64,000 nucleotides of DNA from an uncultured bacterium. Lineage in GTDB: Bacteria > Oederibacteriota > JAAXVQ01 > JAUVAV01. Made by a program: the position numbers and the translations under genes. Shown here piece after piece: positions 4,350-62,769 of the stretch. Where the stretch lies: the NCBI GenBank assembly GCA_963710755.1, contig CAVQBK010000003.1:821211-885210 (forward strand), given 5' to 3'. Every line of letters begins with the position of its first letter. Position 1 is the stretch's first letter. Below the pieces are notes generated by a model. That model was not told the DNA's origin. It saw only the letters and a program-made list of their open reading frames with translations, and did no database searches.

Positions 4350-4832
4350 ATGGGCAGACGGCATTTTTCGGAAGCGGGTTTTACCTATATTGAGATCGTC
4401 ATTCTGGTGGCCGTGCTGGGGATTGTGGCAGCCTTGCTGTTTCCCTATGTGAAAACCCTGCAGGAAAAAGGCAGGGAAGCTGCCACCAAGGCCAATATCA
4501 GTGCCATTAAATCAGCCATCTCCATCTACTACGGGGATCATGAAGGCGTATGGCCAAGTACGCTTGATGTTAATGATAAAACGCCTGGTTTTGGCTTTGG
4601 AGACTACCTGCCCAGCATGCCCAAAGTGAAGGTTACTTATCCACCGGATGATAAATTGAATCCCTCCGGCAACGAAGTGGCTTATAAGACCTTTCAAGCC
4701 GATCCCAGCCTGGAAAAACCCAATGTCTTTGGCAAAGGCTGGCGCTATGAAAAAGAAACCGGACGCATCTGGGTCAACAGCACGCTTCTGGACAGCGATG
4801 GCATGCCTTATTCCAGCTATGGCTATCAATAA
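4350..4832 (+). CDS. Type IV pilin / prepilin-type N-terminal cleavage-methylation domain protein
   Basis: 'AGFTYIEIVILVAVLGIVAALLFP' matches the prepilin peptidase motif (G|FT..E) followed by a hydrophobic helix. 160 aa. GGGAGG ribosome-binding site. Lies immediately downstream of pilT. Confidence 0.75.
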   Translation: MGRRHFSEAGFTYIEIVILVAVLGIVAALLFPYVKTLQEKGREAATKANISAIKSAISIYYGDHEGVWPSTLDVNDKTPGFGFGDYLPSMPKVKVTYPPDDKLNPSGNEVAYKTFQADPSLEKPNVFGKGWRYEKETGRIWVNSTLLDSDGMPYSSYGYQ

Positions 4833-7871: not shown

Positions 7872-10196
7872 TTGATGATGGGGGAACCTAATTGCTTAGG
7901 GCACCTTGGATGGACCAAGGAAATGAGCTCGGAGAGGAGTGCAACCTCAGTGCAAAATCAACACTTATACTCTGATCAATCCCGGCGTTTCCTGATAACC
8001 ATGCTCCTGGGCGTCATATTGGGGAGCGGCGCTTTGGCTATAGTCAGTCAAGCGCACGCGGAAGAAACTGCAGACGGCGTGGGCTACGCCGCCGAAGATA
8101 GGGCCCGTCTGCTTGGCAGCACCCAAGACCAGTGGACTGCGCGTTTGTTGGATGTGCGCGTAGATCAGCATAATGGCCAGCCGGTGGTTAAACTTAAGAC
8201 CACGGCCCGCGTGGCCAGCGCTATTAGTTATCTGAAAAACCCCGATCGTTTATTGATGAAGGTGCGTCATACCCTCTTGACCTGGAAACCGACTACCTTG
8301 CTGGTCCGCCATCCTCCGCTGGAGCGCATTCGCGCTGCCCAGCACGACGACGATGTCTGGGTGGTGCTGGACATGACCCGGCCGGCACGATGGCATCGGC
8401 AGACCCAGGCCTATGGCTTGGTGTTAACTTTGGGACCGCAAGCAACCGGCCCCGCTCTGGACACAACCCGTCCTACAAACCAGACATTGAGAGGAAAAAC
8501 CGTCCGCGCCGGGCAAGCGCAAGTTCGTTATCAGGTGGTGGATGTGGGCGTCGACAATTTGGGCGATAAGACCAAATTGATCATCACCACTGATGGTCAG
8601 GCGCGTTACAAAGTAGAACGCCGGAAAAATGGCCAGGAAGTGGTAGTGACCCTGGTAGAAGCAGCCCTGGCCTGGCATGGCCGGATCAGTGGTCTACCTG
8701 CAGGGGCTATCCGCACCCTGCATACCCAGGCGCAGCCTAAAAATGGCATGGTGACCGTGGCCGTGGGTCTTACCCAGCCGGCCACCTATGTGGTTTACAA
8801 GGATCAAAACCAAGTTGTGCTCGAATTCAACAATCCCCAGGCTATTGCCCAGGAAGCACCACGGCAAGGCAACCTGAGGGCGTTGATCTCCGTGGATCTG
8901 GAAAACGCGCCTTTGGTCTCAGTACTGCGCGCCCTGGCCCAGGAAGTAAAGTTTGACTTGATCCTCTCTCCCGGTGTGCAACAGGTGAGCCGGGAGGAGT
9001 CGGCTCTTACTTTAAGTATTAACCAACAACCCTTTGAACAAGTACTGGATTTCATTTTGCGTCCCCGCAAGATGGCTTTTGCCGTCAACAACAATACCCT
9101 GCGCATTGGGCTGGCAGGTGAATTCATGCCTGAGACTAAAATTTTTGTTCTCAAAAATATGGACGTCGCCAATGCCAACATTAAAGAATCCATTGAAACC
9201 GCTTTCACGGAAGGGGCCCGCGACAAAGTAGTGGTGGATAGCTATGGCAATCGCGTCATTGTATCCGCCATTCCCAGCGACCTGGTTCGGATCAGCAAGA
9301 TCATCGGTCATATGGACGTGCAACGTCGGTTGGTGTCGCAAACCTTCCTGCTCAATTACGTGGATGCTGCCAAGATCGCACCGTTGCTTAAATCCCAATT
9401 GTCTTCTCTGGGGGCAGTCAAGGAAAACAAGTCGGAAAATGCCTTGGTAGTCACCGATATTCCCGGCAACATGGAAAGCTTGAGGCGCATCATCCGGAAC
9501 TTGGATACCAAGGCGCAACAGGTCATGATTGAAGCACGTATTGTGGAGGTATCACACACCAACCAGCTCGACCTGGGGGTTGATTGGAACGTGGCCAGTG
9601 CAGCCGGTGCCAATCCCAACTATACCGTAGCGTCTTCCCCTCAGCCGGTGGGGCAGGTGGGCAGCTTAACCATCGGGTCGCTGCAGTCAGGGGTGGATTT
9701 GAACGCCACCCTCTCGGCTATGGAAACCAAAGGCATGGTCAACACCATTTCCAATCCCAGGATCGCCACTATTAACAAGGAAGAAGCCACCTTGAAAGCT
9801 AGTCAAAGTATTCCATACATTACCAGCGTGGTGAGCAATGGAGTTGTGAGCCAGATGGTGGACTATCTGGAATTGCCCATTGTCCTCAAGGTTACGCCCC
9901 AAGTCACCAAAGGCAATCAAGTGCTGCTCAATCCTCTGAGCCTGACTGTGACCACGCCTGTGGGCACGGGCAATCCGCCCACTACCACCACCCGGTCAGC
10001 CAGCACCCAGATGCTGGTCCACGACGGGCAAACCATTGCCATCGGGGGCATGGTCAGAGATGATGAAATCACCACCGAGTCCAAGGTACCACTCCTGGGG
10101 GATCTGCCGGTATTGGGCTTTTTATTCAAAAGCAATGTGACCAAGAAAAATAAGGTGGAATTGGTGGTGTTTTTAACCACCCATATTTTGGAATAA
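7872..10196 (+). CDS. pilQ: Type IV pilus secretin PilQ
   Basis: C-terminal secretin signature '…VPLLGDLPVLGFLFKSNVTKKNKVELVVFLTTHIL' with upstream secretin N domains. A strong GAGGAGAGGA ribosome-binding site precedes 7872, but the Sec-like hydrophobic segment 'MLLGVILGSGALAIVSQAHA' starts at residue 44. Alternative starts are 7923 and 8001. Confidence 0.9.
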   Translation: MMMGEPNCLGHLGWTKEMSSERSATSVQNQHLYSDQSRRFLITMLLGVILGSGALAIVSQAHAEETADGVGYAAEDRARLLGSTQDQWTARLLDVRVDQHNGQPVVKLKTTARVASAISYLKNPDRLLMKVRHTLLTWKPTTLLVRHPPLERIRAAQHDDDVWVVLDMTRPARWHRQTQAYGLVLTLGPQATGPALDTTRPTNQTLRGKTVRAGQAQVRYQVVDVGVDNLGDKTKLIITTDGQARYKVERRKNGQEVVVTLVEAALAWHGRISGLPAGAIRTLHTQAQPKNGMVTVAVGLTQPATYVVYKDQNQVVLEFNNPQAIAQEAPRQGNLRALISVDLENAPLVSVLRALAQEVKFDLILSPGVQQVSREESALTLSINQQPFEQVLDFILRPRKMAFAVNNNTLRIGLAGEFMPETKIFVLKNMDVANANIKESIETAFTEGARDKVVVDSYGNRVIVSAIPSDLVRISKIIGHMDVQRRLVSQTFLLNYVDAAKIAPLLKSQLSSLGAVKENKSENALVVTDIPGNMESLRRIIRNLDTKAQQVMIEARIVEVSHTNQLDLGVDWNVASAAGANPNYTVASSPQPVGQVGSLTIGSLQSGVDLNATLSAMETKGMVNTISNPRIATINKEEATLKASQSIPYITSVVSNGVVSQMVDYLELPIVLKVTPQVTKGNQVLLNPLSLTVTTPVGTGNPPTTTTRSASTQMLVHDGQTIAIGGMVRDDEITTESKVPLLGDLPVLGFLFKSNVTKKNKVELVVFLTTHILE

Positions 10197-27166: not shown

Positions 27167-28036
27167 ATGGCTGATACCAATCCGCATGTCACTGCTTTTC
27201 TGGACTACCTGCAAAGCGGCCGCAATGCATCTGCCCATACCTTGCGCGCTTACAAGCAGGATTTGTCTACCTTCGCCGGTTTTGCAGCAGACCAGTTTCC
27301 CCATCAGGTGACCTACAAAGTCGTGAGAGCTTATCTGGCCTGGTGCCGTGATCAACAACTGTCACGCCGCACCATCAATCGCCGTTTGGCGGCCGTGCGC
27401 GCTTTTTATGGTTATTTGAAACGGCAAGGCCTCAGGCCGGACAATCCGGGCAAGGGCGTACAATCACCGAAAGGCACGCATGAGTTACCTAAATTCATTG
27501 ATCAAGAGACCATTACCGCACTTATGCAGGCGCCCAATCAAACCGGGCGGGGCAAAAGAGACCGCGCCATTTTGGAGACCATTTATTCCACCGGCATGCG
27601 TTTGTCTGAATTGGCCGGCCTGCAGCTGCAGGATATTGATTTTACCAGCGGCTTGGTGCGGGTCATGGGTAAACGCCGCAAGGAGCGACTTGTGCCCATT
27701 GGCCGTCCGGCTATGGAAGCGTTGAAAGCCTACTTTGCCGTACAGCCTCCTCAATCGCACCAGACCTTATTTAAAAATGCCCGGGGCGGACCCTTGACAG
27801 GTCGCAGTGTGGAACGGTTGTTTGCCAAATACATTGCCCGGGTCAGCCGTACTCAGGGCCTTTCACCCCATAGCCTGCGCCATAGTTTTGCCACCCATCT
27901 GTTGGACAATGGGGCTGACTTACGGGCTGTGCAGGAGCTGCTCGGCCATGCCGGCTTGGGCACCACCCAAATTTATACTCACGTGACGCCGGAAAAATTA
28001 AAATCTGCCTACAAAAAAGCACATCCGCGTGCATAA
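27167..28036 (+). CDS. xerC: Tyrosine recombinase XerC
   Basis: Catalytic R…HxxR…Y region '…HSLRHSFATHLLDNGADLRAVQELLGHAGLGTTQIYTHV' and ~290 aa length. Sits between topA and hslV, as codV/xerC does in Bacillus. Confidence 0.9.
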   Translation: MADTNPHVTAFLDYLQSGRNASAHTLRAYKQDLSTFAGFAADQFPHQVTYKVVRAYLAWCRDQQLSRRTINRRLAAVRAFYGYLKRQGLRPDNPGKGVQSPKGTHELPKFIDQETITALMQAPNQTGRGKRDRAILETIYSTGMRLSELAGLQLQDIDFTSGLVRVMGKRRKERLVPIGRPAMEALKAYFAVQPPQSHQTLFKNARGGPLTGRSVERLFAKYIARVSRTQGLSPHSLRHSFATHLLDNGADLRAVQELLGHAGLGTTQIYTHVTPEKLKSAYKKAHPRA

Positions 28037-33578: not shown

Positions 33579-33793
33579 GCCCACCAAGGCGGAATAAAAG
33601 ATTTATCCCAAACCAAGTCGCAAAGGACGCCAAGCCGGGGTTTAACATCCCCCTTCGTTTAAATTTTGGAGGACACAAGTGCAGAGCCGCTGCAGACGAT
33701 AGCTTGGTTGCTCTGCGTTGCCCCTTGGTGTTTTTTGCCTGTGCAGGGGCGGGCATGCCGCGCCCCTGCAACGATAATAAAACAGGAAAGCCT

Positions 33794-34525
33794 ATGGCCA
33801 AAACAACAGCACCCAATCCGCTCGGAGCAGACAGGGCACAACCCACCTTGTCGATTGTCATGCCGGTTTATAATGAAGAGGCCACCCTTGAGGAAATCAT
33901 GGCCCGCATTCGCCGGGTGCCCATGGCCAAGGAGATTATCGCCGTAGACGATGCCTCTACTGACCGCTCCGCGGAAATATTGGCCAACCTGGCCGGCCCT
34001 GACCTCAAAGTGATCCGGTTTGCCCGCAACCAGGGCAAAGGCGCAGCCCTGCATGAAGCCATCCGGCAGGCGCGCAACGATGTGATTATCATTCAGGATG
34101 CGGATTTGGAATACGATCCCGGGGATTATCCCGAACTGGTGGCGCCCATCGCCCTGGGGGTGGCGGATGTGGTTTATGGCAGCCGCTTTGTCACCGCCAA
34201 AGCCAGGCGTATTCATTTTTTCTGGCATTATGTGGCCAACCAAATGTTGACCACTTTATGCAACATGTTCGCCAACCTAAATCTGACGGATATGGAAACC
34301 TGCTACAAAGCGTTTAAGCGGGAACGACTGCAGGCAGTGGTCCTGAAGGAAAAACGGTTTGGCTTCGAACCGGAGGTTACCCTGAAAATGGCAAGACTGG
34401 GCTTCTGCTTTTATGAAGTCGGCATTGCTTATTATGGCCGTACTTACAAGGAAGGCAAGAAAATAGGGTTCAAGGATGCCTTGCGGGCTGTTTACTGTAT
34501 CTTAAAATATGGGTTATTCCGATAA
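33794..34525 (+). CDS. Family-2 glycosyltransferase, soluble DPM1/ArnC-like polyprenyl-phosphate sugar synthase type
   Basis: 'LSIVMPVYNEE', 'DDASTDRS', 'IQDADLEYDP'. ~60% identical to the CDS at 62068-62769, with the same C-terminus (YCILKYGLF). Inserted between argF and argG. An AGGAAAG ribosome-binding site precedes the ATG at 33794. Confidence 0.8.
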   Translation: MAKTTAPNPLGADRAQPTLSIVMPVYNEEATLEEIMARIRRVPMAKEIIAVDDASTDRSAEILANLAGPDLKVIRFARNQGKGAALHEAIRQARNDVIIIQDADLEYDPGDYPELVAPIALGVADVVYGSRFVTAKARRIHFFWHYVANQMLTTLCNMFANLNLTDMETCYKAFKRERLQAVVLKEKRFGFEPEVTLKMARLGFCFYEVGIAYYGRTYKEGKKIGFKDALRAVYCILKYGLFR

Positions 34526-38662: not shown

Positions 38663-38703
38663 CCCCTGGTTGACAGCAAAGGTTACCAATGGCTAAACGA
38701 CCA

Positions 38704-38738
38704 AGCGGCGTGCCACCATGGGGCACGCCGCTTTTTTT
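38704..38738 (+). terminator. Rho-independent terminator after the ABC ATPase gene
   Basis: 11-bp stem AGCGGCGTGCC / GGCACGCCGCT around a 7-nt loop, followed by TTTTTTT. Confidence 0.8.
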
Positions 38739-38862
38739 ATCCTGGGAATCCAACCGCCCAGCAACTTGCTGCGGGAATAGGTGTATTGACCAACAAGCTG
38801 TTTCCTCCGCCCCGAACAAAAGGACGCGCCGCCAACAAGCTGGCTTTTTACCCTGGCTGACG

Positions 38863-40965
38863 ATGGTTCTGATCTGCTGGGCCCTGTCCTTCGCCGGCCC
38901 GGCGCATGCCGCCACAGCCGGACTTCCGGATTTGGAATCCTTTCAGGCCAAGGGCAATACCAGTAATGGCCATGTGCTCATTATGGCCGATAAACTCATC
39001 TACCATGAAGACCTGCAACAAATCCTGGCCCACGGGTCGGTGCGGGTATGGTACAACCAACTCACCATGACGGCTGATGATGCCCAGGCTGATTTAACGA
39101 GCCAGGTGGTCAAGGCTCAGGGTCACGTCACCCTCAGCGAGGAGGGACGCGATCTGGAGTGTGCGTCGCTGACCTATAATCTCAAGACCGGATCAGCCGA
39201 AGCCTTGGGCATTGTTTTTGCCACGGACCCCTGGTACTATCAGGGCCGTTCTATTGAAAAGTTCGGCGATAAAGAAGTCATCATCACCGAACCTGCCTTT
39301 ACCACCTGTAATGCCCGTCATCCCCACTATCACCTTAAAGCCAGGACTATAGACGTGGTGTTGGGGGATGCTCTGACAGCCTACGATGCCACCTTGTGCA
39401 TTGGAGATACACCGATCTTTTGGATACCTTGGTTCCGGCGTTCCTTGTCCGATGACCGGCCGCCTTTCAGTCTTCAATTGGGCTACAATGATTTTGAAGG
39501 CTACTTTGCCAATATTAAGTATAACTACTTTTTTAATAAAAGAAATTACGGTGGGGTGTTGCTTAATCTGATGGAAAAAACCGGGGTGGGCACAGGCCTG
39601 GACCATTTTATTTCCTATCAGGCGCTGGGCGAAGGCAACAGTGAGCTGCATTTTTTGTATGTATTTGATCCCCGATCTAAAAACGAACGGGTAACCGGTA
39701 ATCTGGTCAGTGACCATCATTTCACACCTCAGGACGATCTCAAGTTAAGCCTCCAATACCTGTCGGATCGTAATTTTAACCGTGAGTTTTCCAGCACCTT
39801 GGTCGATTCCTATCAGCAGCAATCCACTTTGTTTTACAATCATCAGGGCAGTGATTTTAATTTTAATGCCAACATCCTTGAAAATCTGGCTTTTGATCCT
39901 TTACGAAACCAGTACTATACTGCCCAGCGCCAGTTACCCAGCCTGAGTTATTCTCTGTTTTCGAAAAAAATCACAGATTTCCTCCGGCCTGTTTATTTTG
40001 GATTTTCCGGCACTTTTGACCATGGCTTCATCGGCCAGGATTCTTCAGATGCAGTGGTGGTGCAAAACCGTTATACCGATGATCTGAAACTGACGCCGAC
40101 CTTGACCCAAAATTATGTATTCCCCATGTGGGTGACCACCCAGCCCAGTTTGGCCTGGTCCTTGAGTACGCCGCTCCGAGGCAGCAATAAAGAATGGTTG
40201 ATTCCAGGTTATGAAAAGGATCTCAATGGACAATATGCTTTATTAAATGCCTCCTACAACACCAGTGTGACTTTGACCAACAAATGGGTTAATTATGTGT
40301 ACACCAAACCGACCCATTTGGTGGAAACCCGTCTGACCTATGATTTTCAGCGCACCTTGGATCTGTTGCATGACCAGTCCCTGCCCAATGCCGGGGTGAC
40401 CAGTGAAGGTCTGCGCTTGAAGCTTACCTATAATATGGGCAATTTTTTATACAATGAAATCGGAACCCGCTACAGCTTGCTGCCCGTGATCCATTGGTAT
40501 GAAGCCTGGGATAATCCGCTGCTCACCGGTTATCTGCGGCTGCCCAATTTTAACCTTAATTGGCAGGGGACTTACTCTATGGAGCACCAGCGGGTGAACA
40601 GCGGTAATGTCAATTTTAACTACTATAGCGGCCTGTGGAATGTCGCGGTCAATACTTCATACAGTTTGGTCACCGGCATTGACCGCGCGCTGAAGGACAG
40701 TCTGTTTGTCTCCTTCAACGGCGGCTTACGCCCTCCGGGATGGGGATTGGGCCTGCAGGGCAGTGTGCAGTATAATGTTATCGATCATCAGTTCACTAAC
40801 TTCACCTTGAATCTGACCCGTGACTTGCATTGCTGGACCGGTCAAGCTTCGTTTAAGGTCTACCAGGACGGCCATGCGGAAATCGGCTTTGGATTGAACA
40901 TCAAGGCTTTTCCGGAAATTAAGGCCGGCATGGGCAGCTACGGCGGCGCCACCCTGGCGCCGTGA
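38863..40965 (+). CDS. lptD: LptD/OstA-like outer-membrane LPS-assembly protein
   Basis: Signal peptide 'MVLICWALSFAGPAHA', then an OstA_N/LptA-like β-jellyroll segment (ADKLIYHEDLQQILAHGSVRVWYNQLTMTADDAQADLTSQVVKAQGHVTL…SLTYNLKTG), 'PIFWIPWF', and a ~550-aa Tyr/Asn-rich β-barrel region. The upstream part of the 6-frame ORF (from 38689) contains the terminator and is not coding. Confidence 0.55.
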   Translation: MVLICWALSFAGPAHAATAGLPDLESFQAKGNTSNGHVLIMADKLIYHEDLQQILAHGSVRVWYNQLTMTADDAQADLTSQVVKAQGHVTLSEEGRDLECASLTYNLKTGSAEALGIVFATDPWYYQGRSIEKFGDKEVIITEPAFTTCNARHPHYHLKARTIDVVLGDALTAYDATLCIGDTPIFWIPWFRRSLSDDRPPFSLQLGYNDFEGYFANIKYNYFFNKRNYGGVLLNLMEKTGVGTGLDHFISYQALGEGNSELHFLYVFDPRSKNERVTGNLVSDHHFTPQDDLKLSLQYLSDRNFNREFSSTLVDSYQQQSTLFYNHQGSDFNFNANILENLAFDPLRNQYYTAQRQLPSLSYSLFSKKITDFLRPVYFGFSGTFDHGFIGQDSSDAVVVQNRYTDDLKLTPTLTQNYVFPMWVTTQPSLAWSLSTPLRGSNKEWLIPGYEKDLNGQYALLNASYNTSVTLTNKWVNYVYTKPTHLVETRLTYDFQRTLDLLHDQSLPNAGVTSEGLRLKLTYNMGNFLYNEIGTRYSLLPVIHWYEAWDNPLLTGYLRLPNFNLNWQGTYSMEHQRVNSGNVNFNYYSGLWNVAVNTSYSLVTGIDRALKDSLFVSFNGGLRPPGWGLGLQGSVQYNVIDHQFTNFTLNLTRDLHCWTGQASFKVYQDGHAEIGFGLNIKAFPEIKAGMGSYGGATLAP

Positions 40966-43337: not shown

Positions 43338-45501
<2,164 letters not shown>

Positions 45502-47498: not shown

Positions 47499-48458
47499 AT
47501 GAAACTTAAACTATTAATCACCGGTGTGGAAGGGTTTGCCGGGTCCTATTTGGCCCAGTGGGGGCTGGAGCAGGGAGCAGTGGTTCATGGCACGGTCTAT
47601 CCCCGGGCCTCTCTGCGAAATATCGAGGCCATCAAAGGGCTGCACACGCATCCTGTGGATATCCTGGAAGCCGACCGCTTGGCTGAGCTGGTTAAGGCTA
47701 TCAAGCCTGATTACATTTTCCATTTGGCCGGACAGAGCAATGTCTTTGCCAGTAACGAGCTGGCTGATCAGACACTCAAGACCAATGTGATGGGTAACTT
47801 CAATATTATAGAAGCGGTCAGAAAATCCGCCATAAAAGCAAGAGTGTTGATTGTGGGCTCGGCCAATGAGTATGGAAAAGTCCCTAAAAAAGAACATCCC
47901 ATCAATGAACAACAACCGCTCAATCCTGATAATCCCTATGCAGTGTCCAAAGTCTGCCAGGAATTAATGGGACACTATTATGCAAAGCAGCACAACCTTG
48001 ATATTGTTACGGTAAGACCGTTTAATTATATCGGGCCCAGGCAGGCCTTGGGGTTCGTGTGTTCTGATTTTGCCCATCAATTGGTGCAAATTGAAAGAAA
48101 AGAAAAGCCCCCTCTTATGGAAGTGGGTAATCTAAATGTGTATCGTGATTTTACGGATGTGCGCGATATGGTCAGAGGTTACTGGCTGGCTTTGGCCAAA
48201 GGGAAAAAAGGGGGCCTCTACAATCTCTGTTCAGGTCAGTATTACAGCATTAAGTCCCTGTTAAATTCCATGATCGCCATGACCGGATGCAAGGTTGAGA
48301 TCAAGATAAAAGCAGGCATGATCAGGTCCAATGAAAACCGCTGTTTTTACGGGGATTGCACTAAATTTCAGAATATCACCAAATGGAAAGCGCAAATTCC
48401 CATAGAAGAGACCTTGCGCGATATATTGGATTATTGGCGAGGAGTTAATAGGTCATAA
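47499..48458 (+). CDS. NAD-dependent sugar-nucleotide epimerase/reductase (Rmd-like, GDP-4-keto-6-deoxymannose reductase candidate)
   Basis: 'LLITGVEGFAGSYLAQW' Rossmann fold and catalytic 'NPYAVSKVCQE' (YxxxK), similar in layout to Rmd proteins. The 3' end carries repeat copy A. Confidence 0.65.
   Translation: MKLKLLITGVEGFAGSYLAQWGLEQGAVVHGTVYPRASLRNIEAIKGLHTHPVDILEADRLAELVKAIKPDYIFHLAGQSNVFASNELADQTLKTNVMGNFNIIEAVRKSAIKARVLIVGSANEYGKVPKKEHPINEQQPLNPDNPYAVSKVCQELMGHYYAKQHNLDIVTVRPFNYIGPRQALGFVCSDFAHQLVQIERKEKPPLMEVGNLNVYRDFTDVRDMVRGYWLALAKGKKGGLYNLCSGQYYSIKSLLNSMIAMTGCKVEIKIKAGMIRSNENRCFYGDCTKFQNITKWKAQIPIEETLRDILDYWRGVNRS
48344..48397 (+). repeat. Direct repeat copy A (54 bp; identical to 49148-49201)
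   Basis: Exact 54-bp match seen directly. This copy lies inside the 3' end of the Rmd-like gene. Confidence 0.9.
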
Positions 48459-48550
48459 CGAATTTCCCGGGAAGGCCCCTATTTCCCGTGGTTTTTCTCA
48501 ATTGCATTCTTTATAATAACAAGTAATGGTTACGAAAGAGGTGGTATCTC

Positions 48551-48775
48551 ATGACTGAAAATCTAAAGCATATCTTTTCAGAAGCGTTGGCATTGTCGCC
48601 CATGGAACGAGCTGAATTGGTGGAAAAAATTCTGACCAGTTTTGAGTTTCCCAACCGCAAGATGATAGATGAAGCCTGGATTACCGAAGTGGAGGAGCGT
48701 ATCGATAAGTTTGAAGAGGGCCGCATTGAGGCCAGACCTGCCCAGGATGTTTTCAAACAAATCGACAACATCTAA
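48551..48775 (+). CDS. Putative addiction-module antitoxin (small acidic antidote protein)
   Basis: 74 aa, '…ALALSPMERAELVEKIL…DEAWITEVEERIDKFEEG' antidote-type sequence. Strong AAAGAGGTGG ribosome-binding site. Immediately followed by a RelE/ParE-like gene. Confidence 0.6.
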   Translation: MTENLKHIFSEALALSPMERAELVEKILTSFEFPNRKMIDEAWITEVEERIDKFEEGRIEARPAQDVFKQIDNI

Positions 48776-48778
48776 ATA

Positions 48779-49081
48779 ATGAAGATCAAATTCCTTCAAC
48801 CAGCTGAGGATGAATTTATTGAGGCCGTCAATTATTACAACGGGCAAAGTGAGGGTCTTGGCTTTGAATTTGCGTTGGAAATAAGGCACACGCTTGAGAG
48901 GATCAATGGCCACCCGGAAGCCTGGACACAGCTTTCGAAACGTTCACGCCGCTGCCGCACCAATAGATTTCCTTATGGCGTTGTTTACCAGGCCAAAGGG
49001 GAAGAAATACTCATTATTGCTGTCATGCATCTTCATAAACACCCCCGGTCATGGAAAACGCGGGTCCGCAAGGTGACTTAA
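48779..49081 (+). CDS. RelE/ParE-family toxin
   Basis: 100 aa, '…FIEAVNYYNGQSEGLGFEFALEI…' and a C-terminal 'RFPYGVVYQAKGEEILIIAVMHLHKHP' β-sheet core typical of ParE/RelE. Overlaps the antitoxin stop codon. Confidence 0.65.
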   Translation: MKIKFLQPAEDEFIEAVNYYNGQSEGLGFEFALEIRHTLERINGHPEAWTQLSKRSRRCRTNRFPYGVVYQAKGEEILIIAVMHLHKHPRSWKTRVRKVT

Positions 49082-49145
49082 AAAAAGCCTTTGGGTCTAT
49101 CGCATTCTCTGCCCGGGGATGATGACCAGGCCCAACGCAACCCTT

Positions 49146-49259
49146 TATTTTTACGGGGATTGCACTAAATTTCAGAATATCACCAAATGGAAAGCGCAAA
49201 TACCTATGCAACAAACACTTAAGGATATTCTCGACTATTGGCGTGCTTTTAAAACCTAA
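49146..49259 (+). pseudogene. Orphan 3' fragment (last ~37 codons) of an Rmd-like gene, variant allele
   Basis: Translates in frame to 'YFYGDCTKFQNITKWKAQIPMQQTLKDILDYWRAFKT*', compared with the live gene tail 'CFYGDCTKFQNITKWKAQIPIEETLRDILDYWRGVNRS*'. It has no start codon and contains repeat copy B (49148-49201). Confidence 0.6.
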
Positions 49260-49328
49260 GTATTAAAACATTGGCTTAAAAGCACCTTTTGACAAAAAGA
49301 CAGGTTTTTGCCATAATTTAGCGCTTAA

Positions 49329-51056
<1,728 letters not shown>

Positions 51057-55284: not shown

Positions 55285-56664
55285 ATGTTTGCCTTTGCCA
55301 CCGGTAAGATAAAGAAATATTGGACCAGAATTACCGTTAAAGAAGAGGGGAAAAAAATATTTTCAAACGCTTCTTGGCTCCTGGCCGAAAAGATTATACG
55401 GCTTGCAGTAAGTTTTTTAGTCGGCATATGGATGGCCCGATATTTGGGTCCGACGCAATATGGGATTTTAAATTACGCCGCAGCTTGGATAGCGATCGCC
55501 ACTATTATCACTTCCTGGGGGTTGACGGACAGTTTGATTGTGCGCGATCTTGTCCGTGAACCCGGGCATAATAATGTAATCGTATTTACCTCGCTCGCCC
55601 TAAGATTATTAAGCAGTATTTTGCTCTACTCTTTGATGTTGCTCTTTCTGCAAAAATCAGCCGCTGCTCAGAAAACGTCGGTTATGATCATGATTTTAGG
55701 CATTGGCATGATTTTCCAATCCTTTGAAATATTCGATTTCTGGTTTCAATCACAGGTAAAATCCAAATATGTGGTCATAGCCAAAGCGTTGGCCTTTTTA
55801 ACCATGAATGTTCTCAAAGTAATTGCTATTTCACTTCGATGGCCTTTGGAAGTCTTTGGATGGTGTTTAACCGGCGAGTTAATAATAAGTGCAGGCGGGT
55901 ATATTTTCTTTTTTTACAGAATTGGCGGGGACTATACGCGAAAAAAAATGCAAATCAGTATTGATCGTGCATTGACATTGCTCAAACAATCATGGCCATT
56001 GTTAATGTCCGGTTTGGGCTACGCTATATATATGAAGACGGACCAGATTATGCTAGGCAATATGATCGGTGCACAGGCGGTGGGGTTATATTCTGTAGCC
56101 ACAAAGGTAACTGAAGTATGTTATTTTTTACCCATGGTTATTGTTTCTTCGGTTTTTCCAAATTTAATTAAGATTAAATTGCTGGATGCAAGTAAATATT
56201 ATGAACGCTTGCAAAAATTGTATGACGGGCTCACTGCACTGGCTTTGATGATTATCATTCCTACAACATTATTTTCGTATTATATTATTGTCAGCTTGTT
56301 TGGAGGCCATTACCAGGAGAGTGCCTACATTTTAGCCATACATATTTGGGGGTTGCTTTTTACTTTCAACCGGGTGGCGTTTGGTAAATTTTTAGTAATT
56401 GAAGGTTTGTTAAAATTTTCTTTTATCAGCAATGCAATAGGGGCGATTATCAACGTTGCGGCTAACCTTTATGCCATACCCCGCTGGCAAGGTCAAGGTG
56501 CGGCGGTGGCTACAATCATTTCATACTTCATCTCTTTGCACGTCGCTGCTTGGTTTTTCTCTAAAACGCGGAATAATGCCAATATGATTTTAAAAGCATT
56601 TTTTATCCCATTTCGGAGTTTGATCTATTTGCTGAGAGTAGGCAGGACACATGACGTTAAATGA
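55285..56664 (+). CDS. wzx: Polysaccharide flippase Wzx (MOP/PST family)
   Basis: ~14 transmembrane segments with a polysaccharide-biosynthesis-protein pattern. AGAGGA ribosome-binding site. Confidence 0.75.
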   Translation: MFAFATGKIKKYWTRITVKEEGKKIFSNASWLLAEKIIRLAVSFLVGIWMARYLGPTQYGILNYAAAWIAIATIITSWGLTDSLIVRDLVREPGHNNVIVFTSLALRLLSSILLYSLMLLFLQKSAAAQKTSVMIMILGIGMIFQSFEIFDFWFQSQVKSKYVVIAKALAFLTMNVLKVIAISLRWPLEVFGWCLTGELIISAGGYIFFFYRIGGDYTRKKMQISIDRALTLLKQSWPLLMSGLGYAIYMKTDQIMLGNMIGAQAVGLYSVATKVTEVCYFLPMVIVSSVFPNLIKIKLLDASKYYERLQKLYDGLTALALMIIIPTTLFSYYIIVSLFGGHYQESAYILAIHIWGLLFTFNRVAFGKFLVIEGLLKFSFISNAIGAIINVAANLYAIPRWQGQGAAVATIISYFISLHVAAWFFSKTRNNANMILKAFFIPFRSLIYLLRVGRTHDVK

Positions 56665-57781
56665 TCTTTCGAAGTTACAGAATTATTTACATTATATGCT
56701 TGCAGGTTACTTAAATGGGAATCAAATGAACAAGGGGAGTGAAAATAAACGTATTTGGGAAGAAACGATAACTTTAATTAATGATGGAAGAAAATCCCCC
56801 TTTTTTTCTTGCGTTGAGGAGCTTATCAGCGCTGGGTATGCAATATTTTTGCAAAAAATAGCTCATGTCTCGATGAAAAAGAAAAAACAAGTGGCAAAGT
56901 GTTTGCAGCCATTTGCCGACTGGAAACAAAAAATAAAACTATCAAGGCGACTAAAACCGATAGTTCTTCTTCAACGAAGACTTGAGAGAAGGAAAGAGAT
57001 TTTTCTATTTGCTGGTTTACATGGCAGTTATTCGACCCAGGATTTTATTTATGGCATGAGTGATGTGGACACGATATTAGTACTTAGAAAACAAACAGTA
57101 TTGGATCCAAAATTACTCAGGCAAGCCAGGAAGATAATTGGTCCTACTGTCAAATATTTATATAAAATCTGTATTTTTCAGCACCATGAGCACCATGTCA
57201 TTTCTGAGATTGATTTAGATTTCTACCCACCTCATTATTTTCCAATGGAGTTGATGGACTACACTACAGCTTTTATAGGCGACTCTTTAACTTTCTTGAA
57301 AAGATCGGATTATATTGAGGTCAAAGAAAGTCTGGTACAATGGAGAGAAAAATTTGGACGCGGAGACTTCAGCAGGATAATGCAAAAAGACAATTTATAT
57401 GACATGGTTCATTACAATCAAAGCATATTGTTTTTGCCCTGTCTTTGGCAGTCTCTTTCTCGGAAGAATTTGTATAAAAAGCATATTTTTAAAATATTTT
57501 ATAAAGCTTTCGATTCTAAGGAAACCGCTATTATGCGGACCGCTGAATCCCTGAGAAAACAAATCATCGCTGATCCCCGTTGGTATAGGCTGCTGGTTGA
57601 TGGATTAGCTCTCCTAAAGCGCCCAGGTCTATTCCCTAAGGTTTTTCGGATACTGACCAAATATTTATACGGGAATAAGAAACTTGTGTTTAAAAAAAAT
57701 ATTGCCCAGCTATCTTCAAACCAAGTTGTGACATTGATCGATAGCATATTGAAAGGAGCGAGTAACCATGCTGAAGGATGA
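56651..57781 (+). CDS. Nucleotidyltransferase-fold protein (Pol β-like minimal NTase motif), function unknown
   Basis: 'FAGLHGSYSTQDFIYGMSDVDTILVL' fits hG[GS]x9-13[DE]h[DE]h. Overlaps the wzx stop and the next gene's start. Very AT-rich. Confidence 0.45.
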   Translation: MTLNDLSKLQNYLHYMLAGYLNGNQMNKGSENKRIWEETITLINDGRKSPFFSCVEELISAGYAIFLQKIAHVSMKKKKQVAKCLQPFADWKQKIKLSRRLKPIVLLQRRLERRKEIFLFAGLHGSYSTQDFIYGMSDVDTILVLRKQTVLDPKLLRQARKIIGPTVKYLYKICIFQHHEHHVISEIDLDFYPPHYFPMELMDYTTAFIGDSLTFLKRSDYIEVKESLVQWREKFGRGDFSRIMQKDNLYDMVHYNQSILFLPCLWQSLSRKNLYKKHIFKIFYKAFDSKETAIMRTAESLRKQIIADPRWYRLLVDGLALLKRPGLFPKVFRILTKYLYGNKKLVFKKNIAQLSSNQVVTLIDSILKGASNHAEG

Positions 57782-58865
57782 CACGAAATACTTTCCGCGC
57801 GAAGCATATCCCCAAGCTATTTTTGAATACTTAAAGATGTTAAAACCTCATTATACTGATATAAGCGCCATTTACCAGTTTGGTGACGTTGGACAACCTG
57901 GATTATCAGATATTGACTTAATTGTAGTCATGAAAAATAATTGCCATCAGCAAAAATATACCGATTATACAGTGCCTCGCCAAAATGACTCTTTAACTTA
58001 TTTAATTTGCCATGATCCCTTGTTTGTAAATGAAGAAATATTCCGAAAAATTAAATATGGGTATCCGATATTTAAATTATCTTGGCTCTGGGGAAAGGGT
58101 ATTGATTATGAGCAAGTGTTACATGATGAAAATAAGGAAATCAATATTTTAAATTTACTCAATACTTTTTTAACCAAAGTTCCGTCTGATTATATAAGAT
58201 ATATATATAGAGAAGAGCAGGTCTCCTGCCGTCTTGCAATTGCAATGTTAAACTCCTTTAAACATATGTATGCCTTGTTATTTAGCATTACTGGTGAACG
58301 TGATAGTGGATCGGAAAATTATATTGAAAGACTTGATGGATTAAGAAAAGGGTGGTTTCAAGATAATTCCTTAGAAAAACTTGAACAGTTGAAGGAAATG
58401 ATCAAAGAATCTTTGTATGTCATTGCTGATTTGGTGAAAAAAACTGATATCATGGTTAGGCATCAATATAATCTTACGCCCAAAGGAGACTTGATCTTTA
58501 AAAACCGCACTTTTTATTATATATTTAAAAAAGAATGGGAAAAAGAGATTTTTATAAAAGAAATTGAGAGTCGAGGAACAATATATTTTCCATATTCTTT
58601 TTCACTATTTTTACAGCATGCTTCCAGGCAAAAAAACGTCTATGGACAATATTGCAAACGTATACTAAAGCCGCACAACCATAAGATAACAGGGATTCAA
58701 GAGAACAGTGTTATTAATGAGCACAATATGATTAAAGATAAATATATCACTTTTATGAAAAACTGCTTTATGTATCCGCCACTGCCATACATCGGCATGG
58801 GCTACCAAGCGTTGGGTAGCAGAATTTATAATAAAGTAAAAATATTTCTAAAAAGAGAAAGATGA
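57768..58865 (+). CDS. Second nucleotidyltransferase-fold-like protein, function unknown
   Basis: 'QFGDVGQPGLSDIDLIVVM' is a KNTase-like SDIDL motif. Coupled to both flanking genes. Confidence 0.4.
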   Translation: MLKDDTKYFPREAYPQAIFEYLKMLKPHYTDISAIYQFGDVGQPGLSDIDLIVVMKNNCHQQKYTDYTVPRQNDSLTYLICHDPLFVNEEIFRKIKYGYPIFKLSWLWGKGIDYEQVLHDENKEINILNLLNTFLTKVPSDYIRYIYREEQVSCRLAIAMLNSFKHMYALLFSITGERDSGSENYIERLDGLRKGWFQDNSLEKLEQLKEMIKESLYVIADLVKKTDIMVRHQYNLTPKGDLIFKNRTFYYIFKKEWEKEIFIKEIESRGTIYFPYSFSLFLQHASRQKNVYGQYCKRILKPHNHKITGIQENSVINEHNMIKDKYITFMKNCFMYPPLPYIGMGYQALGSRIYNKVKIFLKRER

Positions 58866-61975: not shown

Positions 61976-62067
61976 AAATATTAAACCAAGCGATATATCA
62001 TTGAATGAGAAGTAAATATTGTTGTTGTCTTTTTAAGACTACTCTTATTTTGAGCAAGGATTGTCCA

Positions 62068-62769
62068 ATGAATACTGATAAGCTTCCTTCAATTTCAGTA
62101 ATAATACCAGCGTATAATGAGGAAAAAACAATTGCTGAAATTATTGCTAAGGTTCGAGAAATACAAATTGAAAAAGAAATTATCGTTGTTAATGATGGAT
62201 CTAAAGATAATACGGAGAAAATTCTAGAGGGGCTTGAGGGCCCGGATATGAAAATCGTCAACCTACCCGGCAATTCAGGGAAGGGAGGCGCCATCAGGGA
62301 AGGCTTTAAACATGCCCAAAATAAAATAGTCGTGATTCAAGATGCAGATTTGGAATACGATCCTCAAGATTATTATGAGTTGTTAACCCCTTTTGTTACC
62401 GACAACGCTGATGTCGTTTACGGCAGCCGGTTTTTAACCACTAAGACCAGACGGTTGCATTATTTTTGGCATTATGTAGCTAATAATCTTTTAACCCTGG
62501 CTTGTAATATGGTTAGCAATCTCAATATGACGGACATGGAAACATGCTATAAATTATTTAAACGTGAACATATTCAAAGCTTAAAACTGATGGAAAAGAA
62601 ATTTGGTATAGAGCCCGAAATGACTATTAAACTTGCCAAGAAAAAGCTTAAATTCTACGAAGTGGGCATCTCCTACCATGGCCGATCTTATGAAGATGGG
62701 AAAAAAATCGGAGCCAAAGATGCTTTTCGCGCTTTTTACTGTATTTTAAAATATGGGTTATTTAGTTGA
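62068..62769 (+). CDS. Family-2 glycosyltransferase, DPM1/ArnC-like (paralog of 33794-34525)
   Basis: 'ISVIIPAYNEE', 'NDGSKDNT', 'IQDADLEYDP', C-terminal 'YCILKYGLF'. The upstream part of the 6-frame ORF (from 62005) is a non-homologous leader. Confidence 0.8.
   Translation: MNTDKLPSISVIIPAYNEEKTIAEIIAKVREIQIEKEIIVVNDGSKDNTEKILEGLEGPDMKIVNLPGNSGKGGAIREGFKHAQNKIVVIQDADLEYDPQDYYELLTPFVTDNADVVYGSRFLTTKTRRLHYFWHYVANNLLTLACNMVSNLNMTDMETCYKLFKREHIQSLKLMEKKFGIEPEMTIKLAKKKLKFYEVGISYHGRSYEDGKKIGAKDAFRAFYCILKYGLFS

What the first reader, a model, noticed from the sequence alone, without database searches (positions are those of the whole stretch)
48344..49259. RelE/ParE-type toxin-antitoxin cassette inserted between a live gene tail and a displaced paralogous gene-tail fragment
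The last ~38 codons of the Rmd-like gene (copy A, 48344-48397, exact 54-bp match) recur downstream of the toxin-antitoxin pair (49148-49201). The match then continues as a diverged (~70% nt) but in-frame tail encoding '…IPMQQTLKDILDYWRAFKT*', versus the live '…IPIEETLRDILDYWRGVNRS*'. The segment in between (48398-49147) carries the antitoxin (74 aa) and a ParE/RelE toxin (100 aa). This is the footprint of a homologous-recombination replacement. An incoming allele of the gene's 3' end arrived together with a toxin-antitoxin module, and the resident 3' end was left stranded as a pseudogene fragment. The toxin-antitoxin pair may stabilize the acquired glycan locus.
Basis: seen in the sequence. 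Interest (0 to 1): 0.6.

Follow-up and report, generated by a model that had tools for sequence, protein, structure and literature searches.

The report
Toxin-antitoxin insert beside stranded gene tail
A small toxin-antitoxin gene pair lies between the working end of a sugar-nucleotide enzyme gene and a left-over copy of that gene's end; this is a real but fairly ordinary recombination scar at the border of the variable part of a surface-polysaccharide gene cluster.

Summary
A 54-bp exact repeat (48344-48397 = 49148-49201) sits inside a 131-nt, 79%-identical duplication of the Rmd-like gene's 3' end. The two copies bracket an intact PF09720 antitoxin / ParE-family toxin operon.

The stranded copy comes from a diverged allele that was once functional, not from a decayed duplicate (pS ~1.1 vs pN 0.21).

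The only close relative, Logan contig L001, has the same gene-TA-fragment layout. It also carries a second stacked unit: another displaced tail, a 302-aa gene and a third tail stub.

More distant relatives have no TA and no fragments. They keep the upstream block, but a different gene set follows the Rmd-like gene in each. The gene's 3' end is therefore the border between the conserved and variable parts of a glycan locus.

Best reading: serial 3'-end displacement. Imported segments carried a new gene tail plus cargo. They joined by homology inside the gene and by an illegitimate join on the right.

The 54-bp identity is not the original crossover. It is a later gene-conversion patch from the stranded tail into the live tail, and L001 has its own, different patch.

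No integrase or attC-like site was found. This is a new member of known kinds, of modest interest.

The parts
47499..48458 (+). Live Rmd-like short-chain dehydrogenase/reductase gene (319 aa; GDP-4-dehydro-6-deoxy-D-mannose reductase-like)
   Evidence: PF16363 GDP_Man_Dehyd E 3.5e-64 and PF01370 E 2.2e-55. Homologues are named GDP-4-dehydro-6-deoxy-D-mannose reductase by JGI. All NCBIfam hits are below their cut-offs.
48039..49186 (+). Block nearly identical to relative L001 (3' third of the gene + TA operon + left part of the stranded tail). Its left edge is a homologous-recombination breakpoint inside the gene.
   Evidence: There are 4 differences in 1080 bp outside the tail patch (99.6%). 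This compares with 76% identity for 47499-48038 and 96.3% for 49192-49622.
48318..48448 (+). Copy A of the duplicated gene tail (live 3' end, tail type '...IPIEETLRDILDYWRGVNRS*')
   Evidence: the repeat finder family D1: 131 nt, 79% identity to copy B.
48344..48397 (+). 54-bp core of copy A, identical to copy B. Interpreted as a gene-conversion patch copied from the stranded tail.
   Evidence: Exact match with 0 expected. 11 of the 15 window-vs-L001 differences in the shared block fall within 48343-48410 (Fisher p 1.6e-11). At 48361/62/74/83/90/92 the window's live tail carries the stranded-tail states.
48468..48498 (+). Terminator-like hairpin plus T-rich tract just after the live gene's stop codon
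   Evidence: Consensus scan: 7-pair stem, then TGGTTTTTCT. This is only a consensus match.
48551..48775 (+). Antitoxin gene (74 aa)
   Evidence: PF09720 Unstab_antitox E 1.5e-13. TIGR02574 41.9 bits against a cut-off of 31.9. It is 100% identical in L001.
48779..49081 (+). ParE/RelE-family toxin gene (100 aa)
   Evidence: PF05016 ParE_toxin 32.3 bits against a cut-off of 23. ParE2 8c26_A E 1.5e-4. 367 homologues were found, the best non-self one at 74% identity, each paired with a PF09720 gene where examined.
49116..49122 (+). Right-hand novel joint. Homology to the Rmd-like gene starts here, at about codon 273 of 319.
   Evidence: Alignments: upstream of about 49119 there is no similarity to the gene, while downstream the sequences align in frame.
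49119..49259 (+). Stranded 5'-truncated gene tail (copy B, 46 codons, ends '...IPMQQTLKDILDYWRAFKT*')
   Evidence: ORF list. Right 15 codons against the live tail: pS 1.08, pN 0.21. The left part equals L001 fragment B' and the right part equals L001 stub C'.
49148..49201 (+). 54-bp core of copy B (the donor of the conversion patch)
   Evidence: Its states are shared with L001 B' (left) and L001 C' (right).
49289..49317 (+). Promoter-like site (TTGACA-17-CATAAT, with TG before the second hexamer) between the stranded tail and the next gene
   Evidence: 11 of 12 consensus matches. This is a consensus match only.
49356..51056 (+). Downstream conserved neighbour: a GDP-L-fucose-synthase-like gene fused to a membrane/coiled-coil domain
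   Evidence: NF047922 298.8 bits (below cut-off) and PF01370. It is adjacent to the Rmd-like gene, with no TA between them, in relative L005.

Best explanation
This is a 3'-end displacement scar carrying a toxin-antitoxin passenger. The 3' end of the Rmd-like gene is the border between a conserved nucleotide-sugar block and a strain-variable block of a surface-polysaccharide locus.

**Proposed sequence of events**
1. A DNA segment entered the locus. It consisted of the 3' part of an allelic Rmd-like gene (tail type '...GVNRS*'), its terminator-like hairpin and a parDE-type TA operon.
2. The segment was anchored by homologous recombination inside or upstream of the gene.
3. On the right it was closed by an illegitimate or short-homology join at 49118/49119, inside the resident copy at about codon 273. 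This is homology-facilitated illegitimate recombination.
4. The resident gene's last 46 codons were thereby left stranded, just upstream of the fcl-like gene and its own promoter.
5. The same process happened a second time in the lineage of L001. There a second displaced tail plus a 302-aa secreted-protein gene is stacked behind the TA unit, and its right joint falls at an AAGT(T)GGAA microhomology.
6. Later, intrachromosomal gene conversion copied part of the stranded tail into the live tail, which created the 54-bp identity.

**Consequence.** The direct repeats make precise RecA-type deletion of the 804-bp unit possible, and deletion would restore an intact gene. The ParE-type toxin with its labile antitoxin would penalise cells that lose the unit. 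That would explain why the unit persists.

**What is shown and what is inferred**
- Shown: the anatomy, the functional-allele origin of the fragment, the stacking in L001, a recombination breakpoint inside the gene, the within-genome patches, and the absence of a recombinase.
- Inferred: the order of events, a linear rather than circular intermediate, TA activity, and the addiction effect.
For: - **Repeat and TA identity:**
- **Fragment from a functional diverged allele:** pS 1.08 vs pN 0.21 in the right 15 codons. The 54 identical bases are incompatible with the divergence of the flanks (P about 1e-6 using synonymous sites only).
- **L001, an independent sample and assembler:** it has gene-TA-fragment, then a 302-aa gene, then a third tail stub. 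Tail spacings are 804 and 1116 nt.
- **Hybrid fragment:** the window's fragment equals L001 B' on the left and L001 C' on the right.
- **Cassette 2 right joint:** the stub is type-3 sequence from its first base after TGGAA. Only microhomology was therefore available at that joint.
- **Breakpoint at about 48039 and tail patch:** a near-identical TA block with 11 of its 15 differences packed into 68 bp of the live tail, p 1.6e-11.
- **Private patches:** each genome's live tail shares a patch with its own stranded tail.
- **Ancestral adjacency of Rmd-like and fcl-like genes:** no TA and no fragment in L005-L007.
- **Variable downstream content in every relative, with a conserved upstream block:**
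- **Assembly breaks:** three contigs carrying P0003 break 24-49 bp after the stop codon.
- **No mobile-element signs:** no stranded tails in four other relatives. The only recombinase in the 64 kb is housekeeping XerC, in a dprA-topA-xerC-hslVU cluster. The insert's GC content (0.458) equals that of the gene (0.460).
- **Published precedent:** the same logic has been described for Rhs tips and T6SS effector-immunity arrays (PMC2935791, PMC5361080).
Against: - **No empty site.** No TA-less allele with the stranded tail type was found, so the empty site is inferred rather than seen.
- **One close relative.** Polarity of events is therefore ambiguous. About half of the locus is at least 97% identical between the two genomes. 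The TA block could be shared ancestry, with the diverged 5' part of the gene being the import.
- **First joint unassessable.** Microhomology at 49118/49119 cannot be judged without the donor sequence.
- **Both right joints lie in the last 46 codons.** Two independent illegitimate joints landing there is somewhat unexpected. It may reflect a survivorship effect (longer repeats delete faster), or it may point to a preferred site.
- **Untested activity.** TA activity and any addiction effect have not been tested.
Confidence: 0.65

Rival explanations
1. Campbell-type integration of a circular intermediate by a single homologous crossover (the model Jackson et al. proposed for Rhs tips). A circle carried a partial gene tail ('MMTRPN...GVNRS*') plus the TA operon and recombined with the resident tail. 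On this model the left flank of the stranded copy and the right flank of the live copy come from the donor. The 49118/49119 joint is then the circle's closure point.
For: The structure is exactly what a single crossover would give. It has direct repeats in the same frame, and both the predicted reciprocal product and the deletion product are intact ORFs. The model is published for Rhs (PMC2935791). The core is flanked by diverged sequence on both sides.
Against: In L001 the longest live/stranded identity is 23 bp, and the 54-bp core looks secondary. The second unit in L001 has no usable homology at its right joint, since the stub is resident-type from the first base after TGGAA. A homologous single crossover therefore cannot explain that unit. 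No circle or episomal copy was found in plasmid or phage collections.
Confidence: 0.17
2. A non-autonomous site-specific cassette or miniature integrative element. The gene tail serves as attB, the two tail copies are attL and attR, and the element carries a replacement 3' end, as many integrative elements do. A recombinase encoded elsewhere would move it (integron-like stacking).
For: The insert is flanked by direct repeats and the target gene's 3' end is restored. Two different cargo units are stacked at the same gene end in L001, with the TA unit nearest the gene. TA modules are common integron cargo (own knowledge).
Against: The unit carries no integrase, and none lies within the 64 kb except housekeeping XerC. 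The two units have different joint positions and no shared core or attC-like inverted repeat. The exact core differs between the two genomes. The nearest TA homologues (70-74% identity) sit in unrelated contexts without flanking repeats. No copy was found in any collection scanned.
Confidence: 0.06
3. In situ tandem duplication of the gene's 3' end, for example a long target duplication made when the TA pair inserted, followed by decay of the downstream copy.
For: Two same-frame copies lie 804 nt apart.
Against: The flanks differ by about 36% while the middle is identical. Differences in the right flank are mostly synonymous or conservative (pS 1.08, pN 0.21) and the ORF is intact, which is not the pattern of neutral decay. 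L001 carries three distinct tail types.
Confidence: 0.03
4. Assembly chimera. Two strain alleles of the gene tail in a mixed sample were stitched in tandem through a shared k-mer.
For: The window probably comes from a metagenome-assembled contig. 54 bp equals k-1 for the commonly used k = 55 (own knowledge; untested).
Against: An independent Logan assembly from another run has the same order and a 99.6%-identical TA block. The TA operon is intact and lies between the copies, which a strain collapse would not create.
Confidence: 0.02

Closest known systems
C-terminal (3'-end) displacement arrays of rhs genes (Jackson et al. 2009, PMC2935791), with orphan cdiA-CT/cdiI modules as a related case (own knowledge)
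   Same: A live gene keeps a constant 5' part. A laterally acquired 3' end plus downstream cargo displaces the previous 3' end, which stays behind as a 5'-truncated fragment. Repeated events build an array (L001 has two displaced tails). Homology in the constant part drives the exchange.
   Different: The gene here is a sugar-nucleotide SDR enzyme, not a polymorphic toxin. The tails are allelic variants of the same 46 residues rather than unrelated toxin domains. The cargo is a free-standing TA operon or a secreted protein rather than a cognate immunity gene. The array is short (1-2 fragments).
Sequential displacement of T6SS effector-immunity modules in Vibrio cholerae by homology-facilitated illegitimate recombination (Kirchberger et al. 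2017, PMC5361080)
   Same: The proposed mechanism is the same: a conserved upstream anchor plus an illegitimate right-hand join. Older material is shifted downstream. Finished arrays then spread by ordinary homologous recombination. No integrase is involved.
   Different: There the retained material (immunity genes) is selectively useful. Here the retained tail stub has no evident function beyond serving as a gene-conversion donor.
Type II ParDE/RelBE-superfamily toxin-antitoxin modules with a PF09720/TIGR02574 antitoxin
   Same: The domain content, sizes (74 + 100 aa) and antitoxin-first order match, with the genes tightly adjacent. The same pairing is seen in homologues.
   Different: The sequences are a new branch: the nearest non-self toxin is 74% identical and each protein forms a single-member 90% cluster. 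Activity and target (gyrase versus ribosome-bound mRNA) are unknown.
Serotype switching in O-antigen/capsule loci by recombination in conserved flanking genes, which leaves gene remnants at junctions (own knowledge of E. coli, Salmonella and pneumococcal loci)
   Same: A conserved nucleotide-sugar block adjoins a variable block. The recombination breakpoint is inside the last conserved gene, sequence identity is mosaic, and remnant fragments sit at the border.
   Different: The thing inserted at the border here is not a glycan gene but a TA operon.
Chromosomal integron cassette arrays carrying TA modules
   Same: Promoter-proximal stacking of small cargo units, including TA pairs that can counteract deletion.
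   Different: There is no integron integrase, attI or attC. The joints are gene-tail fragments at differing positions.

Membership tests
Type II toxin-antitoxin, ParE/RelE superfamily toxin with PF09720 antitoxin | Toxin matches the ParE/RelE family profile above the curated threshold | tested here: met
   PF05016 scores 32.3 bits against a cut-off of 23, covering profile positions 1-84 of 89. ParE2 8c26_A E 1.5e-4. No NCBIfam or PADLOC model is hit.
Type II toxin-antitoxin, ParE/RelE superfamily toxin with PF09720 antitoxin | Small antitoxin gene immediately upstream, co-oriented, matching an antitoxin family | tested here: met
   PF09720 E 1.5e-13. TIGR02574 scores 41.9 against 31.9. The stop codon ends at 48775 and the toxin starts at 48779.
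Type II toxin-antitoxin, ParE/RelE superfamily toxin with PF09720 antitoxin | The same pairing is conserved in homologues elsewhere | tested here: met
   L009, L010 and L011 each have a PF09720 gene directly upstream of, and overlapping, the ParE_toxin gene.
Type II toxin-antitoxin, ParE/RelE superfamily toxin with PF09720 antitoxin | Toxin arrests growth and antitoxin neutralises it; the antitoxin is labile | not testable with these tools
   Needs expression experiments.
Type II toxin-antitoxin, ParE/RelE superfamily toxin with PF09720 antitoxin | Own autoregulated promoter/operator upstream of the antitoxin | tested here: inconclusive
   A TATAAT hexamer is visible at 48511-48516 (read), but the consensus scan called no promoter there. 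No clear palindromic operator was seen.
3'-end (C-terminal) displacement array (Rhs / CDI / T6SS-effector type) | An intact gene is followed by cargo and then by 5'-truncated fragments homologous to the gene's own 3' end | tested here: met
   The window has one fragment and L001 has two.
3'-end (C-terminal) displacement array (Rhs / CDI / T6SS-effector type) | Displaced fragments derive from formerly functional alternative ends, not from decay of a duplicate | tested here: met
   pS 1.08 vs pN 0.21, with the ORF intact.
3'-end (C-terminal) displacement array (Rhs / CDI / T6SS-effector type) | The variable 3' end encodes a toxin domain with a cognate immunity gene directly downstream | tested here: not met
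   The tail is the C-terminus of an SDR enzyme (PF16363 alignment runs to residue 308 of 319). The toxin is a separate ParE-family gene.
3'-end (C-terminal) displacement array (Rhs / CDI / T6SS-effector type) | Constant part and variable end are evolutionarily decoupled (recombination breakpoint between them) | tested here: inconclusive
   A breakpoint exists at about 48039, inside the gene. Only two genomes are available, so decoupling cannot be shown phylogenetically.
Integron or other site-specific cassette system | A dedicated recombinase is encoded next to or inside the array | tested here: not met
   Pfam was run on the large + strand ORFs (at least 120 aa) of the 64 kb, plus the TA pair and the stranded tail fragment. 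The only recombinase is XerC at 27167-28036 (TIGR02224 339.5 vs 335.15), in a dprA-topA-xerC-hslVU context.
Integron or other site-specific cassette system | Every cassette is bounded by the same recombination site/core | tested here: not met
   The right joint of unit 1 is at codon ~273 and that of unit 2 is at the TGGAA of codon ~296. No attC-like inverted repeats were found. The exact core is 54 bp in the window but at most 23 bp in L001.
Rmd (GDP-4-dehydro-6-deoxy-D-mannose reductase) | Extended SDR fold of the GDP-mannose-dehydratase family, encoded near a GDP-mannose 4,6-dehydratase gene | tested here: met
   PF16363 E 3.5e-64. A GMD-type gene at 44371-45501 scores 448 bits on PF16363. 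Homologues are named Rmd by JGI.
Rmd (GDP-4-dehydro-6-deoxy-D-mannose reductase) | Match to an equivalog-level model, or demonstrated reductase activity | tested here: inconclusive
   All NCBIfam hits are far below their cut-offs (best 126.7 bits against 475). 'Rmd-like' is a name by similarity only.

The most novel reading that the evidence does not exclude
The 3' end of this Rmd-like gene may be a preferred capture site at which cargo units, each bringing its own replacement gene tail, are stacked without any integrase. The newest unit would lie nearest the gene. The stranded tails would then serve as a standing archive that repeatedly rewrites the enzyme's C-terminus by gene conversion. That would be a recombinase-free, integron-like platform operating on a housekeeping glycan gene, with the TA pair guarding the array against collapse through its own repeats.
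Probability: 0.1. Interest if true: 0.55.

Novelty: new member of a known kind. Interest (0 to 1): 0.3.

Why it matters
This is a clean, small example of how new genes enter the border of a polysaccharide locus. One recombination end is anchored in the last conserved gene and the other is illegitimate. The old gene end is left as a stub, and the stub then feeds gene conversion back into the live gene.

It extends the '3'-end displacement' pattern, known from polymorphic toxin genes, to an ordinary biosynthetic gene. It also offers a natural test case for the idea that a TA pair flanked by direct repeats persists because its precise deletion is punished.

For annotation, it explains a 46-codon orphan ORF. 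It also warns that the live gene's C-terminal sequence is a within-genome mosaic. None of this overturns current understanding.

Tried and rejected
- **Search for a TA-less allele.**
  - The full-length protein search gave only the window's own protein and L001 above 54% identity.
  - None of the 120 best hits carries the stranded tail type.
  - A search with the 46-aa fragment returned no candidates at all, not even the window's own protein, so it is uninformative.
  - Degenerate DNA patterns for the core motif and for the stranded tail gave 0 hits in genome contigs and metagenome contigs. Both collections are now exhausted.
- **Exact look-up of the window's Rmd-like protein:** not on record. 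The source contig could not be read, so the organism stays unidentified.
- **TA unit as a known mobile element:** no blastn match in plasmids or phages. The nearest TA homologues are in unrelated contexts without flanking repeats.
- **Integron or integrative-element reading:** no recombinase except XerC and no shared core.
- **dif-like (Xer) site in the core:** inspected by eye, with no convincing match.
- **Terminal inverted repeats of the insert:** only a shared CCCGGG, which is not significant (read).
- **Compositional anomaly:** none.
- **Rfam:** no RNA family anywhere in the window.
- **PADLOC:** no defence-system model.
- **Second 110-nt repeat in the window (34409 / 62653):** this is just two full-length GT2 paralogues, not another tail scar.
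- **Failed script:** one script used a wrong offset and produced meaningless output. It was redone.
Full report
**1. The observation**

The region was read directly and the ORFs listed.
- The live gene at 47499-48458 encodes a 319-aa protein of the GDP-mannose-dehydratase / NAD-epimerase family (PF16363 E 3.5e-64). Its homologues are named GDP-4-dehydro-6-deoxy-D-mannose reductase by JGI.
- The 54-bp string at 48344-48397 recurs exactly at 49148-49201 and nowhere else in the window, even with three mismatches allowed. None is expected by chance.
The downstream copy is a 46-codon in-frame ORF ending '...IPMQQTLKDILDYWRAFKT*'.
- Between the copies lie a 74-aa PF09720/TIGR02574 antitoxin and a 100-aa PF05016 ParE-family toxin. 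The toxin's best solved relative is ParE2 8c26_A.
- The copies are 804 nt apart, a multiple of three. Recombination between them would restore an intact 318-aa gene.

**2. What the stranded copy is**

In the 15 codons after the core, the two copies differ at 17 of 45 nucleotides. Most changes are synonymous or conservative (pS 1.08, pN 0.21). The fragment therefore evolved as the working end of a diverged allele and is not a decaying duplicate.

The 54 identical bases cannot share that history. Even counting synonymous sites only, the chance of no difference is about 1e-6. All tail variants are closest to this gene lineage and not to any of the other 118 homologues examined.

**3. The one close relative**

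Among 5.8 billion proteins, only the window's own protein and one other (P0002, 86% identity) exceed 54% identity. P0002 lies on a 6.3-kb Logan contig from another run, L001.

L001 has the same gene / antitoxin / toxin / tail-fragment order. It then carries a second unit, giving this layout:
- Fragment B' is a complete tail ending '...DYWRAWKAD*'.
- A 302-aa signal-peptide protein gene with no Pfam match follows it.
- A third, shorter tail stub C' ('KAQMPMQQTLKDILDYWRACKA*') comes next.
- The fcl-like gene follows the stub.

The window's single fragment equals B' on its left and C' on its right. So the two genomes differ by the presence or absence of the second unit. That unit is 1116 nt long and is bounded by AAGTGGAA / AAGTTGGAA. 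Stub C' is resident-type sequence from its first base after TGGAA, so only microhomology was available at that joint.

**4. Recombination signals**

Window and L001 are a mosaic of roughly 100% and roughly 75% identical blocks. Within the gene they are 76% identical up to 48038. From 48039 to 49186 there are only 15 differences, and 11 of them fall in 68 bp of the live tail (48343-48410; Fisher p 1.6e-11). The rest of the block is 99.6% identical. Downstream, 49192-49622 is 96.3% identical.

Two conclusions follow.
- There is a homologous-recombination breakpoint inside the gene.
- The live tail has been rewritten since the block was shared.

In the window, the live tail carries the states of its own stranded copy at 48361/62/74/83/90/92. 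Those states are shared by L001's B' or C', which points to conversion from the stranded tail into the live tail. In L001, the live tail matches L001's own B' over the equivalent of 48383-48410, where the window differs. L001's live and stranded tails share at most 23 identical bases. The 54-bp identity is therefore a secondary gene-conversion patch, not the original crossover.

**5. Wider context**

In relatives at about 50% identity, the upstream block (several epimerases, an RmlD-like gene, an LPG_synthase_TM membrane protein and the Rmd-like gene) is syntenic. What follows the Rmd-like gene differs each time:
- L005-L007: fcl-like gene, a 253-aa protein and Wzy_C.
- L012: a dTDP-sugar isomerase.
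- L013: a flippase.
- L014: Capsule_synth and an ABC transporter.

L005 has the Rmd-like and fcl-like genes adjacent, separated by a 347-bp spacer. There is no TA and no tail fragment. None of the four other relatives has a stranded tail. Three independent contigs carrying P0003 end 24-49 bp after the stop codon, as expected where strains diverge.

The gene's 3' end is thus the conserved/variable border of a surface-polysaccharide locus. In the window that locus runs from about 41189 through glycosyltransferases, a Wzy_C protein and a flippase.

**6. Mobile-element alternatives**
- Pfam annotation of the large + strand ORFs of the 64 kb shows one recombinase. It is XerC (TIGR02224 above cut-off), in a dprA-topA-xerC-hslV-hslU cluster 20 kb away.
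- There is no transposase, integron integrase, attC-like repeat or shared cassette core.
- The insert's GC content matches the gene's.
- The insert has no match in plasmid or phage collections.
- The toxin belongs to a large family (367 hits). Its nearest members, at 70-74% identity, lie in unrelated contexts and are always paired with a PF09720 gene. They lack flanking repeats.

**7. Mechanism proposed**

The anatomy fits 3'-end displacement. An imported segment carried the 3' part of an allelic gene plus cargo. It was anchored by homology in the gene and closed on the right by an illegitimate join inside the resident copy, which left the resident end stranded. The process repeated in L001. 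This is the logic proposed for T6SS effector-immunity arrays through homology-facilitated illegitimate recombination (PMC5361080). It is also the logic proposed for Rhs 'tips' by Jackson et al., who favoured circular intermediates (PMC2935791).

The circular variant remains possible for the TA unit but does not fit the second unit's joint. Once formed, such blocks can move between strains by ordinary homologous recombination. With only two genomes, the direction of the exchange at 48039 cannot be decided.

The window also encodes DprA and a type IV pilus set. This is compatible with natural transformation but does not prove it.

That the TA pair resists loss through its flanking repeats is an inference from what is known of TA-mediated stabilisation (own knowledge). 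It was not tested.

**8. Verdict**

Three points need correction:
- the nature of the right joint;
- the meaning of the 54-bp identity;
- the unsupported claim that the glycan locus was acquired.

The TA pair is a new sequence branch of a common family. The scar is a new example of a known process in an unusual host gene. Interest is modest.

Noticed in passing
window 49356-51056: The fcl-like gene (residues 1-313) is fused in one ORF to a ~247-aa membrane/coiled-coil protein. In relative L005 that protein is a separate gene (8833-9594; 30% identity, starting at the window protein's residue 320, 'MEKE'). This is either a genuine gene fusion or a lost stop codon.
   Followed up: partly
L001 4813-5817 (second stacked unit): This is a 302-aa (334 aa from an upstream TTG) signal-peptide protein with internal 'A-x-x-T-x-K-I' type repeats and no Pfam match. 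It is absent from the window (tblastn). It is the cargo of the second displacement unit.
   Followed up: partly
L012 6479-7340: A different TA type (NTP_transf_2 / HepT-like, i.e. MntA-HepT) sits in the variable region about 1.8 kb downstream of the Rmd-like homologue of another lineage. This is a second case of a TA pair just inside the variable part of this kind of locus, and it could be coincidence.
   Followed up: no
L002, L003, L004 (contigs carrying P0003): Three independent assemblies all break 24-49 bp after the stop codon of the Rmd-like homologue. This suggests strain heterogeneity or repeats starting exactly at that border.
   Followed up: no
window 34409-34518 and 62653-62762: A 110-nt, 76%-identical repeat is explained by two full-length GT2 glycosyltransferase paralogues (33704-34525 and 62005-62769; 57% aa identity). 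The first lies oddly between the OTCase (argF-like) and argininosuccinate synthase genes.
   Followed up: yes
window 1-64000: Every long ORF with a family match that was examined is on the + strand, so about 64 kb is co-directional. Contents include pilM/N/O/secretin, shikimate-pathway genes, cheA/cheC, dprA-topA-xerC-hslVU, arginine biosynthesis and then the glycan locus.
   Followed up: no
window 38689-40965: A 758-aa ORF directly upstream of the glycan locus has no Pfam match at E <= 1e-4. ORFs 56651-57781 and 57768-58865 inside the locus likewise have none.
   Followed up: no
window 48344-48397 / 49148-49201: The exact repeat length (54) equals k-1 for the k = 55 used by common metagenome assemblers. 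A longer repeat might have broken the contig, so the length could be censored by assembly. This cannot be tested without reads.
   Followed up: no
L001 4576-4597 vs 4712-4733 (window 49052-49073 vs 49188-49209): The 3' end of the toxin gene (TGGAAAACGCGGGTCCGCAAGG) resembles the tail segment TGGAAAACCCAGATCCCCATGG (17 of 22), which starts at the same TGGAA where the second unit is joined. This is probably chance.
   Followed up: no
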